DNA from: the human T2T-CHM13v2.0 reference genome, Homo sapiens
NCBI RefSeq assembly: GCF_009914755.1
Contig: NC_060940.1
Direction: 5' to 3' (one strand)
Length of the DNA stretch: 64,000 bases
The notes under the pieces were generated by a model. That model saw only the letters and a program-made list of their open reading frames with translations. It was not told where the DNA came from and did no database searches. A program made the translations under genes and the position numbers. Numbering within the stretch: position 1 is the stretch's first letter; every line of letters begins with the position of its first letter. Shown piece by piece: positions 849 to 45,606 of this stretch.

Positions 849-3838
849 TAGAGGTCATTATTAGGCCGTGTAAGTAGAAGTCACAGAAAAGCAGACTGTC
901 ATTTAATTTAAGGAAGAAGTTTGAAATAAAGCTTTTCACTGAAAGCAGGGAGATGGAATAGCTTAGATATGTCACAGAAAGAATTTCTGTAGCAGGTGGA
1001 AAATGGACTAAATTGGAGGGTTATTTCAACTCTTAAGATTCTATGGTTGTAATTTTAGGTTTTATTATAGGATATAACATTCATATTGCCTATTTAGCTC
1101 CTGAGTGGCAATTACAAAAGGTGAAGAAAGGTAAACACATGACAAGTCCTCCACTATCCAATTATGTCAGGAAATTATTTGTTATAGATGAATAAATTTT
1201 CCAGATAGATGGAATATATTTTAGCAAGACTCAAAAACTTTAATTACATGGATCTTTTCATTTCCCCCACCCCAGAAGGTAATGGTGGTGGTGGTAGAAT
1301 GCTCTGTTAGAACAAGATGAAAATAATTTTAAAGGGAGGTCTCATATGTTTACATTTTTGACAGTTATTCTTAATACCTCCAGGAATTACCCTAACTTAA
1401 TGTATTCGATTGAAATACATTAGATATTTGAAAATCATCTTAAGCAGAAAGAGTTAATTTTATATATATTAGTTATTATAAAAGAGAGGAAAACCTATAT
1501 AAAACTAAAGCAATGCTCACACCCAAGCTATTTGCTGTTTTTTTTCCTAAGGTACTTTAGTTATAGCATACTATTTTAAAAAATGGTACCTTTTCCTAAG
1601 TCAAAAAAGCATCAGATGTACGCACAATTAAAACACTTGTCACTCTACTTTTGCCCTAAGCAAAAAGAAGAAAAATGACTTATAAAATATTTAGATTGTC
1701 TCCTTGAATGATTAAAACTTTTATAAGGTACCATCCCTCTATTTTTCAGAATTTGTTTAAATCTTTATGCATTTGGCATGGTATTACTTATAAAAGTTTC
1801 AGAATTCCTAATTGTCTGACTAAGCCAAAGCATAAAATAGAAATTCTGTCTAGGAATTTCTTTCAGTTGTTTTTTCACTTAAAGTGGACTACTTCTTGGT
1901 TTTGTTATTTCTGTCAGATCTTCTGTATTAAAATGTTCTATTTTAACTGGGAAATTATAGAATATTAGCTAGTTCTGAAATACATCCTAGTTATTAAACT
2001 ATGTAGTATATTGTAGAAGAGTTAAGCTTTGTACTGCCTGTCAGGAATCAGAGTAACAGACATTCCTGTTGTTAACATTAGCTTTAAGGCTATTGACCTC
2101 TAGCATGCATACTTAAGGGTAAGAGGTGAACAGAAAGTAAATTCCAGGAGTGTGGAAAACCCAGCTATTGGTGAGAAATTTGTGGATTAGTGCAGTATAT
2201 GAAGAAAGACTGAAGCCAAACTTCAAAATAGGTCTCAGAAAATTTTGTTGTATTTAATTGTATTTAGGAGGTACATTCCCAGATACCTTAGGACTACTCA
2301 GTCACTTATTTATCATTATTGATACATGAAATATAAGATAATTTGTTAGGACCTACAGAGTCATCAAATTTATTCCTATGATTGTAACATTAATACAAAG
2401 CTGTTTTGAAATACTTAAGTATGAATGACAAGGTTTCTCTATTTGGGCAATTGGACTGAAATGATTTTAAATTAAGGAAATGTTTTAATACAATATGGTG
2501 TGGATATAGTTAGGAAGCATGGACTGCAGTTTCTTGTTAAATAAAATCTGATCATTTGCTTTGGTCAACTATGCAAATACTTTGCACATTTACTATGTAA
2601 GGAATACTTTACAAATTATGGAAAGAGGATAATCTTTGAGAGCTGTTTTTCCTACATAAGTATGTGTTTGTATGCCTGAAAACAGTACAGGTTTACATTG
2701 ACCATTTCATGGGTTCATAGAATTTTTGACCTGAACATGGTTTCACTCTATCCTCATATGCAAAGAATAAACAGGGTTAGAAAGATCATGACTTGCTTGC
2801 TGTCACATAACTAGTTAGCATGTTCCTTTCATAGATCAAACTGTGTAGTGTTCAAAGGTGATCAGAAGTGACAGCAGTACCCACACTATGGACAGATACA
2901 TATTTAATAGGCCATATTATAAAATACAATTGTACCTGGTTGTCTTTGATTATTGAGAAATACTTTTTAGTTTTGTATGTGTCAATTTTAATGTCTAAAT
3001 TTTTTATCTCTGTGTTTAGTGTTTAAAAATGTAACTTTACTGTACCTTGTCAAATGTAGGTATAAATTGTATATACATGTGAATGAATTTTAAATAACAT
3101 CTGTGTTTTAGAAATGTTGACTTTTTAGCTCTTCTATTTGTTCAGTATTTATTAGATGTCTGCCATATGTAAGAAATTATGCCAGGCACTGAGGTTGCAG
3201 AGATGATTAAGAGAAAATTGTCCTACTTTCCTATTGTTCTATATTATAATTTCAGAGATGTTCTCTTTTCATTTCTGATTCATTTCCAGTTGACAGTGGT
3301 TTCTAGCACTTTCTCTTAGCCCTCTAGCTTAGTGATTTGTAATGAGTAATTTACAAACAAAAAATTAATTTTCATTCTACTTAAAGAAGGTGTTCCTCTA
3401 AGTTTCTAGCTTAGCTCTTTGTTTCATGGCATTTGACAATCTGTAATTATTTGATTCTTCAAATACATATTATATACATAATATAGTGTATATCATATAT
3501 ACATATCATATATAGCTATCTAAGGTCCAATTGCTTTTGTAAATGACAGTGCCAAGAAAGTGGACCATTCTCTTTTTAGTTTCTATTCTACCTATATTTA
3601 TTACAAATTATCGCAAAACTCTTACAAAAATGTGCTATGGGATTCAACTTTTATGAGATTTTTGTTAAAAAAAGGGTTATTGGTCACTTAGACAGATATT
3701 CTTAGAAGATTGTATTGTAGGATAAATTTCCTAGGATTTTTCCCCCTAATTACATTAAGTGAAAGTAAGATTTTGGAAGTAATTTTTAAAAATAATATAG
3801 GAAACATTGAGTATAATTAGAATTAGAAATAGTAATAA

Positions 3839-42520: not shown

Positions 42521-43619
42521 CATAATGATTTTTGTAATTGTTTGCTCTCTCAGTTCCATTCTGTCTCTTTGTAATGCTACTATCAGAGTATTTCTCTCAT
42601 TAGCCAGCCCCTTGTCTCCATTATCACTGTTATTACCCTATTATTAATCAGGATTACATTAGTTATTAAATGTAAAATAGAATAATCCCTGGCACTTAGT
42701 AAGTAGTCTGTAAGTGTTATCTCATTATTGTTATTATTTTCACATTGATGACATCTCAAGTCAGATCCTTTCCTCGTCCTTACTTGTCCTCTGCCTTTAA
42801 TCTCTCATGCCATCCAGATGGGTCTTTCTAGAGCCCTGTTTAGATAGTGTTGTTTCTGTTTTGAGGCCTTTGGTACCTAAAAGGGGCAGAGGGGAGAACC
42901 CAATGTTGTTTTATAGTGATATCAGATGACTAACCAGGACCAACTGAAAAAATGGCATTGATGAAAGAGGTAAACTTGAATTTTAAAGCAGTGAAATTTT
43001 GTTTTAGTGATTTAAGGGCATTGCTTACTAAAATAGAATCAATTTTTATAGAAAGAAAAGTTGTACTGATGTTCAAATTCAAGTTGACTTGCTATGGAAC
43101 TAAACCTACAGTTTTACCTGAAAAACTCATCAGTGCAGTTAAAATAGAAGGTTAGGAGGAAAGGTCAGAAAGGTTTTTTATGTTACGAAAAAAATGTATT
43201 CATCCATGTTAAGACGATGAAACAATTTTAACATTGTTAGTAATCTTTATAAACAGTTCTCATTTGTTCATTTCAAAATTTTAAGCTTCTTTTTATAATT
43301 CAAATGAAAATAGCTTCATTTCTGTATTTTCAAAATAACACTGTTAGCTTTTTGTTAGAAAAATTATAAGAAACCTTATCTAACTTCTTAAACTTATTTT
43401 GGGTTCATTTGCATGACCTCTTTAACCCTTTGCTAATCTTCAGCTATTTCATATTTTAAATATTTTAGAGTATCTTGGAGAAAAGTATTTTTTTCCAATA
43501 AAAATTGCTTTAGATTTTGTTTTTTTAAAATATTGATAGCCACATAATGCCATTTTACCACAGTTTAGTTCTCAGGTGATTTTTTTTTTTAATCAGATTT
43601 TTATGTATATTTTTTAAAA

Positions 43620-44110
43620 CTTTACTGCAGGAAATGGCAGAGTGAGAGTTAATGTGTTACATGGAGGGAAGAACAGTCCATTGGGGGTTAAATTGCAGAG
43701 TCTAATGGAATAATAACTGGTAGCACCATCTGCTGGCCTACTTCCGCAGAAGGAGTCAGTATTTTTAACGACATCTCTAATATTCATGCTGATGCATTTT
43801 GATGCTTTGTGCATTCATTTCTTTCTGTGCTTTGTTGGAATCTGGCTATCTGCTTACAGCTATTGAGGAAACTCAGCTTTTTAGGAGTGTTTACAGCCTT
43901 TTTCATACCTAAATAGGATGAACAGTAGATATAAACTTGCCAAGGCAGAAATGTGTTGATAAATCAAAATGTGTATTTGTGGAGGGTTGTGCATCTCTTG
44001 GTTGCAGCTTGCTAAATAGGCCATTTAGGAATCTTCTTTCAATGCTTTTTTCTTGAGCACTGCCTGGGGTGGTGAAAAAGCAGAGGGCAAGCCTTTGTCT
44101 GACGCCAAAA
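43620..44110 (+). promoter_or_regulatory. Putative internal promoter / 5'UTR of a short CHD9 isoform
   Basis: Repeat-free segment with a CTCF-like motif (43721-43739, minus strand), FOX TGTTTAC (43888-43894), CArG CCTAAATAGG (43908-43917) and TATAAA (43930-43935) upstream of the 44111 ATG. Confidence 0.55.
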
Positions 44111-44140
44111 ATGTCTTCAGTGAAGAGGCCAAGAGGAAGG
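44111..44140 (+). CDS. CHD9: Coding part of a putative CHD9 alternative first exon (MSSVKRPRGR)
   Basis: gccaaaaATG with A at -3; exactly 10 codons, then AGG|gtaagt. Phase 0 matches the 45275 exon. An in-frame TGA lies upstream at 44054-44056. The surrounding sequence is non-repetitive. Confidence 0.75.
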
Positions 44141-45274
44141 GTAAGTGAAAGCCTGAATGAGTGGGAGGAGGAGGGGTTCTTTGGGCTAAAAGGCTAATGG
44201 GATTGAATAACCTTCCTTATTACTGGCTGCTGCTACGGGAGTCGTACTGCATCGCCATCTTGAGCTTGTTGCTGTTTCCTCGAGTCTTGGTTATTTGTTA
44301 TAGCCTGTAGGCCTTAAGGTGGCATTTTAGTGAGCAATTCTAAACCCTCCTTCCTTTCCCAGTGCTGCAGTGCTGCTATGAAACCTTTGATGAGGCAGGT
44401 ATAGAAAAAATATCCAGTGAAGCACACTGGAATCAGCATGAAAATGTGTTTGGAAATTCCTGATGGTTTTTTCCTTTGGTATAGTCAGAGGCATGTTTAC
44501 GGGTAAGAACATAACAAAACTGTGATCTAAGTATATGTGGATGAATGCGTGTTTGAAGAGGAAATTCTTTTTAAAATGCTCTTGATCTGCTTCCTGTGAT
44601 ATTGCTAAATATTAATAATTTTAATGTAAAACTGTAAAACTTGTTTATTTCCCAAATTGCTTGAGCAAAATAATTATGATATAGAAAAAGAAAAAAAATT
44701 TTCACATTTAACTCTTTCATGGGAAAACTAAAACTTTCTCTAATTTTAAGTATGAGAATGTCTGTTTACTAACTAGCTATGTTGCTGCACTTAAATATTA
44801 AATGATTTCAGGTTGTAGTCGTAAAGCAGAGGTTTTATTTTTCTAAAAGCCATAATAAACTGTATGGAGTAATTCTAAATTAAAATTATTTAAAAATTTA
44901 TTAATGTTCAGAATTTTGGAGGGAAGAGGAAAGAAAAGACTTTTATTCCAAATGCACAGAATATTTATGGGATAAAATTTGAATCAACTATCTTTACAGG
45001 ACAAAACTTGAATCAACTAACCAAGAATGCTATGAAAATATCAATGAATCTATATTATTCTTCTTTAACCTTCATTTTTAAAAGTAGCAATTGAGCTGTT
45101 TATATCTGTACTAATTTCTTGATAAGCAAAATGTTTTAAATTTGTTTGTAGCACTCACATATTTGCTAATGTAATTTTACCTCTCTAAACATAATTTAAG
45201 ATTTTCAGATATTTGTGACAATTGTTTTAGATGTACTTTGGTATATTCTATAAAAAATATTTTTGTTTCTGTAG

Positions 45275-45606
45275 CCTCCATCTTCCAAGAAGAGCGATGG
45301 TTCTGGGACATATACTAAGTTGCAGAATACCCAGGTGAGGGTCATGTCTGAGAAGAAGCAGAGAAAAAAGGTGGAATCAGAAAGCAAGCAAGAAAAGGCT
45401 AATCGTATAATATCAGAGGCCATAGCAAAAGCAAAGGAGCGTGGGGAACGCAATATTCCACGAGTAATGAGCCCTGAAAACTTTCCTACTGCTTCAGTTG
45501 AAGGAAAAGAGGAAAAGAAAGGTAGAAGGATGAAATCCAAGCCAAAGGACAAAGACAGCAAAAAAACAAAAACATGTTCTAAGTTAAAAGAGAAGACAAA
45601 AATTGG
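45275..45606 (+). CDS. CHD9: CHD9 internal coding exon, 332 nt (PPSSKKSDGSGTYTKLQN...KLKEKTKIG; Lys-rich, NLS-like)
   Basis: Acceptor ttttgtttctgtag|CCT and donor GG|gtaagt; open frame from phase 0 to phase 2. The KQEKANRIISEAIAKAKERGERNIPRV segment is characteristic of the CHD6-9 family, and I recognise the peptide as CHD9. Confidence 0.96.

What the first reader, a model, noticed from the sequence alone, without database searches (positions are those of the whole stretch)
44111..45310. Alternative first exon assembles an HMGA-type AT-hook across a splice junction, giving a short CHD9 isoform with a new DNA-binding N-terminus
Seen: in repeat-free intron sequence, gccaaaaATG at 44111 opens exactly 10 codons (MSSVKRPRGR) ending at a perfect donor AGG|GTAAGT (44140/44141). 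An in-frame stop at 44054 rules out an upstream coding extension. Phase 0 matches the 45275 acceptor, so the product reads MSSVKRPRGR|PPSSKKSDG. Established: KRPRGRP is identical to the core of the second AT-hook of HMGA1/HMGA2 (PKRPRGRPKGSK), a minor-groove binder of AT-rich DNA. The final P of RGRP comes from the downstream exon, so the motif exists only after this splice. Inference: an internal promoter swaps the long canonical N-terminus for an AT-hook placed ahead of the chromodomains and ATPase, possibly retargeting the remodeller to AT-rich chromatin. The transcript may already be catalogued as a cDNA isoform, which I cannot check; I do not know of the split AT-hook being described.
Basis: partly seen in the sequence, partly recalled or inferred. 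Interest (0 to 1): 0.9.

Follow-up and report, generated by a model that had tools for sequence, protein, structure and literature searches.

The report
Conserved AT-hook start of short CHD9
An already annotated alternative 5' exon of human CHD9 gives a shorter chromatin remodeller whose first eleven residues, identical from a bony fish to human, form a classic AT-hook DNA-binding motif that appears undiscussed in print and is functionally untested.

Summary
ATG 44111 opens ten codons (MSSVKRPRGR) that end at AGG|GTAAGT. TGA 44054 closes the frame upstream. The acceptor at 45275 is phase 0 and supplies the Pro that completes RGRP. The human canonical upstream exon ends LCLQRQ|GTATGT, so only this splice makes the motif.

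The exon is not new: RefSeq already lists 43758-44140 and 44058-44140 (hub annotation).

The new result is conservation. MSS[V/M]KRPRGRP starts predicted CHD9 proteins of guinea pig, alligator, rattlesnake and a parrot, and lies inside a bonefish model. That is 5 of 106 database proteins examined. In the bonefish the flanking exon sequence has diverged.

The only PDB sequence hit is the second AT-hook of HMG-I/Y, with KRPRGRP identical. Pfam AT_hook scores 14.0-14.9 bits, below its 17.4 cut-off.

Caveats:
- The 44058 boundary looks like a splice acceptor. The 83-nt form may be an internal exon that gives a premature stop after the canonical exon.
- The long form carries 7 upstream ATGs.
- Mice lacking the whole Chd9 ORF have no overt phenotype.
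- DNA binding is inferred, not shown.

Verdict: a real, conserved, catalogued isoform with an apparently undescribed AT-hook, of moderate interest.

The parts
43758..44140 (+). Long form of the alternative 5' exon (RefSeq 'other transcript'), probably a true first exon from an intronic, CpG-poor start site
   Evidence: Hub annotation; the sequence before 43758 is ...GGAGTC|AGTATT, with no AG acceptor. GTCAGT fits the human initiator BBCABW (consensus recalled). There are 7 upstream ATGs (43786, 43792, 43802, 43918, 43951, 43969, 44042), and all their short ORFs end before 44111. CpG o/e is 0.22 and GC 0.41 over 43600-44600; a local GC rise to 0.41-0.47 inside an intron of 0.23-0.30.
44058..44140 (+). 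83-nt form of the same exon (RefSeq 'other transcript'). Its 5' boundary looks like a splice acceptor, so it is probably an internal exon in some transcripts.
   Evidence: Hub annotation. CTTTTTTCTTGAG|CACTGCCT, a pyrimidine tract plus AG with G at -3. G|C at -1/+1 does not fit a start site (rule recalled). ATG 44111 is the only ATG in this form; read in phase 0 after the canonical exon it gives HCLGW* (premature stop). Read from offset 2 it is open: LPGVVKKQRASLCLTPKMSSVKRPRGR.
44054..44056 (+). In-frame TGA upstream of the ATG. It bounds the ORF only in the long exon form.
44111..44140 (+). Ten-codon coding part, MSSVKRPRGR. Start context CCAAAAATGT (A at -3).
   Evidence: The same decapeptide occurs in P0002, P0017, P0021 and P0020, and as MSSMKRPRGR in P0027.
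44141..44146 (+). Splice donor GTAAGT after AGG (consensus MAG|GTRAGT)
   Evidence: The exon end at 44140 is in the hub annotation.
45250..45274 (+). Pyrimidine tract and acceptor ATAAAAAATATTTTTGTTTCTGTAG
45275..45606 (+). Shared coding exon, phase 0. Its first codon CCT supplies the Pro of RGRP, and PSSKK gives the C-terminal basic flank. A Lys/Arg-rich stretch follows.
   Evidence: and hub annotation. The exon starts PPSSKK as far out as Xenopus. The next 220 residues hold 57 K+R against 35 D+E.
44244..44502 (+). Neighbouring annotated start-type exon with no ATG in frame with 45275. Transcripts from it would lack the AT-hook and probably start at ATG 45344 (MSEKKQ...).
   Evidence: Hub annotation; six ATGs, none in phase 0; donor CGG|GTAAGA; start GAGTC|GTACTG with no acceptor. 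Predicted proteins P0018 (camel) and P0019 (green turtle) begin MSEKKQ.

Best explanation
This is a genuine, evolutionarily old alternative 5' exon of CHD9, already present in RefSeq transcript models. Spliced to the exon at 45275, it replaces the first 484 residues of the canonical protein with ten residues, MSSVKRPRGR. The lost region is Ser/Gln/Asn/His-rich and net acidic. Together with the Pro-Pro-Ser-Ser-Lys-Lys that opens the shared exon, the new residues form one canonical HMGA-type AT-hook (KRPRGRP with basic flanks) at the extreme N-terminus. The hook lies about 300 residues ahead of the double chromodomain and the SNF2 ATPase.

Shown here: the sequence anatomy, the uniqueness of the junction, and protein-level conservation from a teleost to human.

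Inferred: (1) ATG 44111 is used in vivo. [quoted passage not shown] (3) The isoform arises partly from an intronic CpG-poor promoter (43758 form) and partly by splicing of the 83-nt form to upstream exons outside the window.
For: Anatomy.

Only this splice makes RGRP:
- The human canonical exon (G000:C16:58953899-58955350) ends LCLQRQ|GTATGT in phase 0.
- 24 of 106 database proteins have Q[RGHA]Q|P, and none of those 24 canonical junctions ends in RGR.

Conservation:
- 5 of 106 proteins collected carry KRPRGRP at this junction: guinea pig P0002, rattlesnake P0017, alligator P0021, parrot CHD9-like P0027 (MPNMSSMKRPRGRPLLSKK), and bonefish P0020 (MSSVKRPRGRPRKNTNGS at 259-).
- Guinea pig and bonefish are identical over residues 1-11. 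They then align poorly, with gaps, for about 35 residues until the KQEKANRIISEAIAKA block. The mini-exon is thus at least as constrained as the best-conserved part of the neighbouring constitutive exon.
- In the bonefish model similarity starts at the Met. Upstream the fish reads ...SEREKN, against human ...CLTPK.
- The Pro after RGR is kept even where the next residues changed: PP, PL, PR.

AT-hook character:
- The only PDB sequence hit is HMG-I/Y DNA-binding domain 2 in complex with DNA, 2EZD/2EZE, with KRPRGRP identical.
- Reeves' consensus, as quoted in a passage of PMC11354804, is TPKRPRGRPKK.
- Pfam AT_hook matches model positions 1-12 of 13 at E 0.048 (human/guinea pig N-terminus) and E 0.024 (bonefish).
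- Full-length orang-utan CHD9 (P0023) has no RGRP anywhere, only degenerate RGR/GRP motifs at 1580, 2433, 2527 and 2622.

Precedent: the abstract of PMC10403523 reports that the SWI/SNF catalytic-subunit AT-hook raises ATPase velocity 13-fold. PMC11354804 notes that AT-hooks co-operate with the BRG1 bromodomain and the CBX2 chromodomain.
Against: - Pfam AT_hook is below its curated cut-off: 14.0 and 14.9 bits against 17.4. It scores 8.4 bits, E 3.2, in the full-length rattlesnake protein. The PDB match has E 0.4. Short motifs cannot reach significance by score alone.
- All five non-human examples are gene-model predictions. Models exist only where the ORF is intact, which is an ascertainment bias. 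The bonefish model has an evidently spurious 258-residue upstream extension.
- No amphibian or mouse example was seen. Clustering at 90% identity hides isoforms, so absence is uninformative either way.
- No DNA from other vertebrates could be fetched. I could not test whether the constraint acts on codons or on nucleotides.
- The 44058 boundary looks like an acceptor. Included after the canonical exon, the 83-nt exon gives a premature stop.
- The 43758 form has 7 upstream ATGs, three of them with a purine at -3, which should depress initiation at 44111.
- I have no transcript-level, Ribo-seq or peptide evidence. No paper holds the junction peptide strings.
- A single AT-hook binds weakly on its own (general knowledge, recalled).
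- Deletion of the entire Chd9 ORF in mice, which removes this isoform too, gave no overt phenotype (passages of PMC7250415).
Confidence: 0.6

Rival explanations
1. The conserved unit is a regulatory RNA or DNA element, not a coding N-terminus. The 83-nt exon would be a conserved cassette ('poison') exon whose inclusion after the canonical coding exon introduces a premature stop and lowers CHD9 output. Alternatively, the region is conserved as an intronic enhancer or promoter. On this reading the MSSVKRPRGR ORF is what longest-ORF gene predictors report from such transcripts.
For: - The 44058 boundary is acceptor-like.
- The exon length of 83 is not a multiple of 3, and phase-0 read-through gives HCLGW*.
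- RefSeq lists 'enhancer' elements at 43628-44217 and 44218-44805 (hub annotation).
- All cross-species evidence comes from predicted models.
- Nucleotide-level and codon-level constraint could not be separated here.
Against: - The ATG, the open frame, the phase-0 donor and the Pro after RGR are all kept in 5 of 5 non-human examples, while the adjacent constitutive exon has diverged in the fish.
- In the bonefish model similarity to human begins at the Met, not upstream of it.
- The parrot copy changes residues just before the Met and at Val4 but leaves KRPRGRP intact.
- A start-type form of the exon (43758) also exists.
- A full-text search for CHD9 with 'poison exon' found 0 papers.
- The two readings do not exclude each other.
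Confidence: 0.15
2. The peptide is translated and selected, but not as an AT-rich DNA minor-groove binder. The Arg/Lys cluster KRPRGR would act as a nuclear or nucleolar localisation signal, or as an RNA-binding (extended AT-hook-like) element, for an isoform that has lost the canonical N-terminus.
For: - KRPR is a basic cluster of the kind found in monopartite localisation signals (general knowledge, recalled).
- A passage of PMC11354804 says a non-canonical extended AT-hook binds RNA better than DNA, and that HMGA1's first hook binds RNA.
- A 'nucleolar CHD9 (n-CHD9)' form is cited in the literature (reference lists). That paper was not held.
Against: - The shared exon directly downstream is already very basic: KKQRKK, KKGRRMKSKPKDKDSKKTKT, and 57 K+R in 220 residues. 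An extra localisation signal therefore seems unnecessary.
- An NLS does not need the invariant G-R-P that is conserved here.
- The identity is with a hook solved in complex with DNA.
Confidence: 0.15
3. Chance ORF in a noisy intronic transcript, with no selected function.
For: - One KRPRGR+GTRAGT site per genome is about what chance gives (my arithmetic).
- Many upstream ATGs in the long form.
- No phenotype in Chd9-null mice.
Against: - Eleven residues are identical between a teleost and mammals while the neighbouring sequence diverged.
- RefSeq annotates the exon (hub annotation).
- Five independent lineages keep the ATG, the frame and the donor phase.
Confidence: 0.03

Closest known systems
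HMGA1 (HMG-I/Y) second AT-hook, solved bound to DNA (PDB 2EZD/2EZE)
   Same: The KRPRGRP heptapeptide is identical. Ser-Lys follows at the same spacing, with 9 of 18 aligned residues identical. It matches the core of Reeves' consensus TPKRPRGRPKK as quoted in PMC11354804.
   Different: HMGA proteins carry three hooks in a roughly 100-residue protein (passage), whereas here there is a single hook at the very N-terminus of a roughly 2400-residue ATPase. After RGRP comes PSSKK instead of KGSK. The Pfam score is below the cut-off. As far as I recall, the hook of HMGA is not split by an intron; I did not check this.
AT-hook of the SWI/SNF catalytic subunit (Snf2/BRG1)
   Same: A single or paired AT-hook sits on an SNF2-family remodelling ATPase next to a histone-reader domain. 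It is reported to regulate ATPase velocity and not just to anchor the enzyme to DNA (abstract of PMC10403523; PMC11354804 passage). This is the best model for how the CHD9 hook might work.
   Different: In SWI/SNF the hook is C-terminal, beside a bromodomain, and constitutive. In CHD9 it is N-terminal, ahead of the chromodomains, and isoform-specific. No biochemical data exist for CHD9.
CHD9's own C-terminal A/T-rich DNA-binding domain
   Same: The same protein is already reported to associate with A/T-rich promoter DNA (passages of PMC7161146). The region holds degenerate RGR/GRP motifs: KKRRGRRKN, EGRPKQKRHR, RRGRRPKSG.
   Different: None of these is a canonical RGRP, and they are present in all isoforms. 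The N-terminal hook adds a canonical motif only in the short isoform.
N-terminal isoforms of other CHD remodellers made by alternative promoters or splicing
   Same: The review PMC8559672 states that alternative promoter usage or splicing yields several CHD protein isoforms (passage). PMC7250415 notes downstream initiation sites and possible shorter CHD9 isoforms (passage).
   Different: Neither passage mentions this exon or an AT-hook. In PMC8559672, 'AT-hook' occurs 0 times.

Membership tests
AT-hook motif (Pfam PF02178; HMGA type) | Core Arg-Gly-Arg-Pro | tested here: met
   RGR comes from 44132-44140 and P from 45275-45277. RGRP is kept in 5 of 5 non-human examples.
AT-hook motif (Pfam PF02178; HMGA type) | Basic residues flanking the core on both sides | tested here: met
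   K5 and R6 (plus R8) lie before the core, and K15 and K16 after it. In bonefish the core is followed by PRK.
AT-hook motif (Pfam PF02178; HMGA type) | Score at or above Pfam's curated cut-off (17.4 bits) | tested here: not met
   14.0 bits, E 0.048, for the 30-residue N-terminus. 8.4 bits, E 3.2, in P0017. 14.9 bits, E 0.024, in P0020. Model positions 1-12 of 13 are matched. I did not score a known single hook as a control.
AT-hook motif (Pfam PF02178; HMGA type) | Sequence likeness to a hook solved on DNA | tested here: met
   The only PDB hit at E<=10 is 2EZD/2EZE (HMG-I/Y), with KRPRGRP identical. E 0.4 is not significant by itself.
AT-hook motif (Pfam PF02178; HMGA type) | [quoted passage not shown] | not testable with these tools
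   Needs EMSA, fluorescence or NMR with the peptide.
Alternative first exon driven by an internal promoter | The exon's 5' end is a transcription start, not a splice acceptor | tested here: inconclusive
   The 43758 form has no acceptor and an initiator-like GTC|AGT. The 44058 form has an acceptor-like CTTTTTTCTTGAG|C. CAGE and long reads were not available.
Protein-coding exon under purifying selection | ATG, frame and residues conserved across distant species | tested here: met
   The decapeptide is identical in guinea pig, alligator, rattlesnake and bonefish, with one change (V>M) in parrot. The data are predicted proteins only.
Protein-coding exon under purifying selection | Excess of synonymous over non-synonymous change (codon-level signature) | not testable with these tools
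   No vertebrate genomic DNA other than the window's own genome could be fetched. Pattern scans of prokaryote and viral collections gave one chance hit and none.
Poison (NMD-inducing) cassette exon | Length not a multiple of 3, or an in-frame stop, when included between constitutive coding exons | tested here: met
   83 nt. Phase-0 read-through gives HCLGW*. The canonical exon ends in phase 0.
Poison (NMD-inducing) cassette exon | Observed inclusion downstream of the canonical coding exon, with transcripts stabilised when NMD is blocked | not testable with these tools
   Needs RNA-seq or long reads, with and without NMD inhibition.

The most novel reading that the evidence does not exclude
A single perfect AT-hook, kept unchanged since the common ancestor of teleosts and mammals, may be an isoform-specific control module of the CHD9 motor. 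It would set ATPase and remodelling rate, or direct the enzyme to AT-rich or ribosomal DNA, as the SWI/SNF hook tunes BRG1. It may also mark a functionally separate CHD9 form, possibly the reported nucleolar 'n-CHD9'. Swapping a long acidic, disordered N-terminus for a minor-groove hook would then be a conserved switch between two modes of one remodeller.
Probability: 0.15. Interest if true: 0.65.

Novelty: new member of a known kind. Interest (0 to 1): 0.45.

Why it matters
CHD9 is described as the least-studied CHD remodeller (passage of PMC7161146). Its domain maps in the papers I could search list no N-terminal DNA-binding element.

A deeply conserved, isoform-specific AT-hook gives a concrete and cheap hypothesis to test. 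Peptide binding assays and an RGR>AAA allele would address how CHD9 isoforms differ in targeting or activity.

The exon also bears on how CHD9 variants, knock-downs and N-terminal antibodies or tags are read, because reagents aimed at the first 484 residues would miss this isoform.

The importance has limits. The transcript is already catalogued, AT-hooks on remodellers are a known theme, and mice lacking all of Chd9 are healthy.

Tried and rejected
- I looked for vertebrate DNA to run a codon-level test, using a back-translated pattern of the decapeptide plus GT. GTDB prokaryote contigs gave one chance hit in a Flavobacteriales MAG (L001, not followed). Viral contigs gave none. No other vertebrate genome is reachable with these tools.
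- Paralogue check in the human genome. KRPRGR+GTRAGT gave 2 matches (CHD9 and a chr10 site that encodes KRPSGR, read), with control 0+0. The looser M-x3-K-R-x-R-G-R+GTRAG gave 2 matches (CHD9 and a chr4 site with AGT = Ser codons), with control 0+1 (after two unanswered tries). Neither extra hit lies in the CHD6, CHD7 or CHD8 loci located. So there is no sign of an equivalent exon in the paralogues, at least in this strict form.
- Literature searches:
  - CHD9 + 'AT-hook': 13 papers. I opened one of them (PMC12140095), where the two terms are unrelated. The other 12 I judged from the listing only.
  - Peptide strings: 0 papers.
  - CHD9 + 'poison exon': 0 papers.
  - CHD9 + 'alternative promoter': 9 papers, none about this exon judging by the listing and the passages of PMC8559672.
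  - 'AT-hook' + 'alternative first exon' + isoform: 4 papers, unrelated judging by title and abstract.
  - The 2024 AT-hook review PMC11354804 has 0 occurrences of CHD or CHD9 in its main text. Its supplements were not looked at.
- The n-CHD9 paper (Salomon-Kent 2015) is not held. Whether n-CHD9 is this isoform remains open.
- Two searches failed on term syntax and were re-worded. One search found nothing and one search found the SWI/SNF paper.
- LxxLL motifs as something lost in the short isoform: rejected. All five in P0023 lie at or beyond residue 868.
- I ran no structure or complex prediction. The motif is a short, disordered peptide for which these tools are uninformative.
Full report
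**1. The observation**

- At 44111 stands gccaaaaATG. Ten codons follow and end at AGG|GTAAGT (44140/44141).
- Frame 1 of 44051-44140 reads S*ALPGVVKKQRASLCLTPKMSSVKRPRGR, so the in-frame TGA sits at 44054-44056.
- The annotated exon 45275-45606 follows a pyrimidine tract and tgtag. In phase 0 it reads PPSSKKSDGSGTYTKLQ....
- The spliced product therefore begins MSSVKRPRGR|PPSSKK. The Pro that completes RGRP is the first codon of the downstream exon.

**2. Is the motif specific to this splice?**

The window's own genome is held.
- The human canonical coding exon lies about 6.7-8.1 kb before the window (G000:C16:58953899-58955350). It ends ...LCLQRQ followed by GTATGT, in phase 0.
- I examined 106 database proteins in all, gathered by three searches:
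  - 19 hits of 300 candidates
  - 38 hits of 48 candidates
  - 78 hits of 5438 candidates
- Sorted by what precedes the exon:
  - 24 have the junction Q[RGHA]Q|P.
  - 4 have RGR|P.
  - 14 show other upstream sequence. By their look, most are predictor read-through of the acceptor region (e.g. ...LFFQ|PP).
  - 64 lack the exon-start pattern I searched for. These are mostly fish CHD8 and fragments, plus the bonefish protein discussed below.
- Full-length orang-utan CHD9 (P0023) has no RGRP anywhere.
- So the canonical AT-hook core exists only in this isoform.

**3. Is it more than chance?**

- Genome-wide, KRPRGR followed by GTRAGT occurs once. The pattern gave 2 matches, but the other encodes KRPSGR. 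The reversed control gave 0+0.
- About 0.7 such sites are expected from uniform composition (my arithmetic). The bare motif is therefore not remarkable.
- The context is what matters. RefSeq already annotates exons 43758-44140 and 44058-44140 (hub annotation), and the peptide is conserved.

**4. Conservation**

- The same N-terminus opens predicted CHD9 proteins of four species:
  - guinea pig (P0002, MSSVKRPRGR|PPSSKK)
  - American alligator (P0021)
  - timber rattlesnake (P0017, ...|PPSAKK)
  - a parrot CHD9-like gene (P0027, MPNMSSMKRPRGR|PLLSKK)
- A bonefish model (P0020) contains MSSVKRPRGRPRKNTNGS at residue 259, behind an evidently spurious Arg/Gly/Glu-rich extension.
- Guinea pig and bonefish are identical over residues 1-11. 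The next ~35 residues barely align until the KQEKANRIISEAIAKA block.
- The mini-exon is thus at least as constrained as the best-conserved part of the adjoining constitutive exon.
- The Pro after RGR survives even where the following residues changed: PP, PL, PR.
- In the fish, the hook reads RGRPRK.
- In the fish model, similarity starts at the Met.
- Limits of this evidence:
  - All of it comes from gene models, which exist only where the ORF is intact.
  - Clustering at 90% identity hides isoforms.
  - No amphibian or mouse example was seen.
  - I could fetch no other vertebrate DNA, so no synonymous versus non-synonymous test was possible.

**5. AT-hook character**

- The 30-residue N-terminus has a single PDB sequence hit. 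It is the second DNA-binding domain of HMG-I/Y solved on DNA (2EZD/2EZE), with KRPRGRP identical and 9 of 18 aligned residues identical, E 0.4.
- A 2024 review quotes Reeves' consensus as TPKRPRGRPKK (passage of PMC11354804).
- Pfam AT_hook matches positions 1-12 of 13 but stays under its cut-off of 17.4 bits. The scores are 14.0 bits for human/guinea pig, 14.9 for bonefish, and 8.4 in the full rattlesnake protein.
- I therefore call it an AT-hook by motif definition and by identity to a solved hook, not by Pfam threshold. DNA binding itself is not shown.

**6. What the short isoform loses and keeps**

- It loses 484 residues rich in S, Q, N and H, with 16 K+R against 44 D+E.
- It keeps the basic region that follows, the two chromodomains, the SNF2 ATPase and the C-terminal domains (Pfam on P0002, P0021 and P0027).
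- It keeps all five LxxLL motifs.

**7.

- The 43758 boundary has no acceptor. It reads GTC|AGT, which fits the human initiator (consensus recalled).
- The nearby exon 44244-44502 also starts without an acceptor.
- The region has a local GC rise but is CpG-poor, with o/e 0.22.
- This supports an intronic, non-CpG-island start region. However, the 43758 form carries 7 upstream ATGs before 44111.
- The 44058 boundary is different. CTTTTTTCTTGAG|CAC looks like a splice acceptor, though with the disfavoured G at -3, and does not look like a start site.
- As an internal 83-nt exon after the canonical phase-0 exon it would read HCLGW*, a premature stop. Only from a non-coding upstream exon would it place ATG 44111 first.
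- The in-frame stop at 44054 is outside this form.
- The 44244-44502 exon has no ATG in phase with 45275. Its transcripts would give a hook-less protein starting at MSEKKQ, as in models P0018 and P0019.

**8. Literature**

- I found no paper that connects CHD9 with an AT-hook (13 listed). I opened PMC12140095, where the terms are unrelated. The rest I judged from the listing.
- No paper holds the peptide strings.
- The AT-hook review never mentions CHD proteins in its main text.
- CHD9 is reported to bind A/T-rich DNA through a C-terminal domain (passages of PMC7161146).
- Alendar et al. noted downstream initiation sites and possible shorter isoforms. For that reason they deleted exons 3-38. 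The null mice had no overt phenotype (passages of PMC7250415).
- A 'nucleolar n-CHD9' paper could not be read.
- For mechanism, the closest precedent is the SWI/SNF catalytic-subunit hook, reported to raise ATPase velocity 13-fold (abstract of PMC10403523).

**9. Verdict**

- Best reading (0.6): a real, anciently conserved, already catalogued alternative 5' exon that gives CHD9 a canonical single AT-hook at its N-terminus. The hook probably acts as an auxiliary minor-groove anchor or ATPase modulator. Translation and binding are inferred.
- Rivals:
  - a conserved regulatory or poison exon (0.15)
  - a localisation or RNA-binding role (0.15)
  - chance (0.03)
- Novelty: a new member of a known kind.
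- Interest: 0.45.

Noticed in passing
window 44058 (boundary of the 83-nt exon form): The annotated exon start follows CTTTTTTCTTGAG, which looks like an acceptor. Included after the canonical phase-0 exon, the 83 nt read HCLGW*, making this a possible NMD-inducing cassette use of the same exon.
   Followed up: partly
window 44244-44502: A second annotated start-type exon lies 100 nt downstream of the AT-hook exon. None of its six ATGs is in phase with 45275, so its transcripts would encode a hook-less CHD9 starting at ATG 45344 (MSEKKQ...), as in the camel and green-turtle models P0018 and P0019.
   Followed up: partly
window 45333-45341: Inside the shared exon the sequence CCCAG|GTGAGGG resembles a 5' splice site. 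It was not examined further.
   Followed up: no
P0015 (Zonotrichia albicollis model), residues 1-50: This model joins an Ala/Gly/Arg/Pro-rich stretch (it looks like translated GC-rich 5' sequence) ending ...AGVKRG directly to PPSKKTDGSG. This hints at transcripts in birds that skip the large first coding exon.
   Followed up: no
P0023 (orang-utan CHD9) residues 1580, 2433, 2527, 2622: Degenerate RGR/GRP basic motifs (PRGRKGKK, KKRRGRRKN, EGRPKQKRHR, RRGRRPKSG). The last three lie in the C-terminal part, where A/T-rich DNA binding has been reported. None is a canonical RGRP.
   Followed up: partly
L015 (G000:C10:11061139-11061162, minus strand): This is the only other genome match to the degenerate pattern. 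It encodes K-R-P-S-G-R before GTGAGT and is probably a chance match.
   Followed up: partly
L001 (Flavobacteriales MAG contig, 2001-2032, minus strand): Single match of the back-translated decapeptide pattern in the prokaryote collection. I took it as chance and did not examine it.
   Followed up: no
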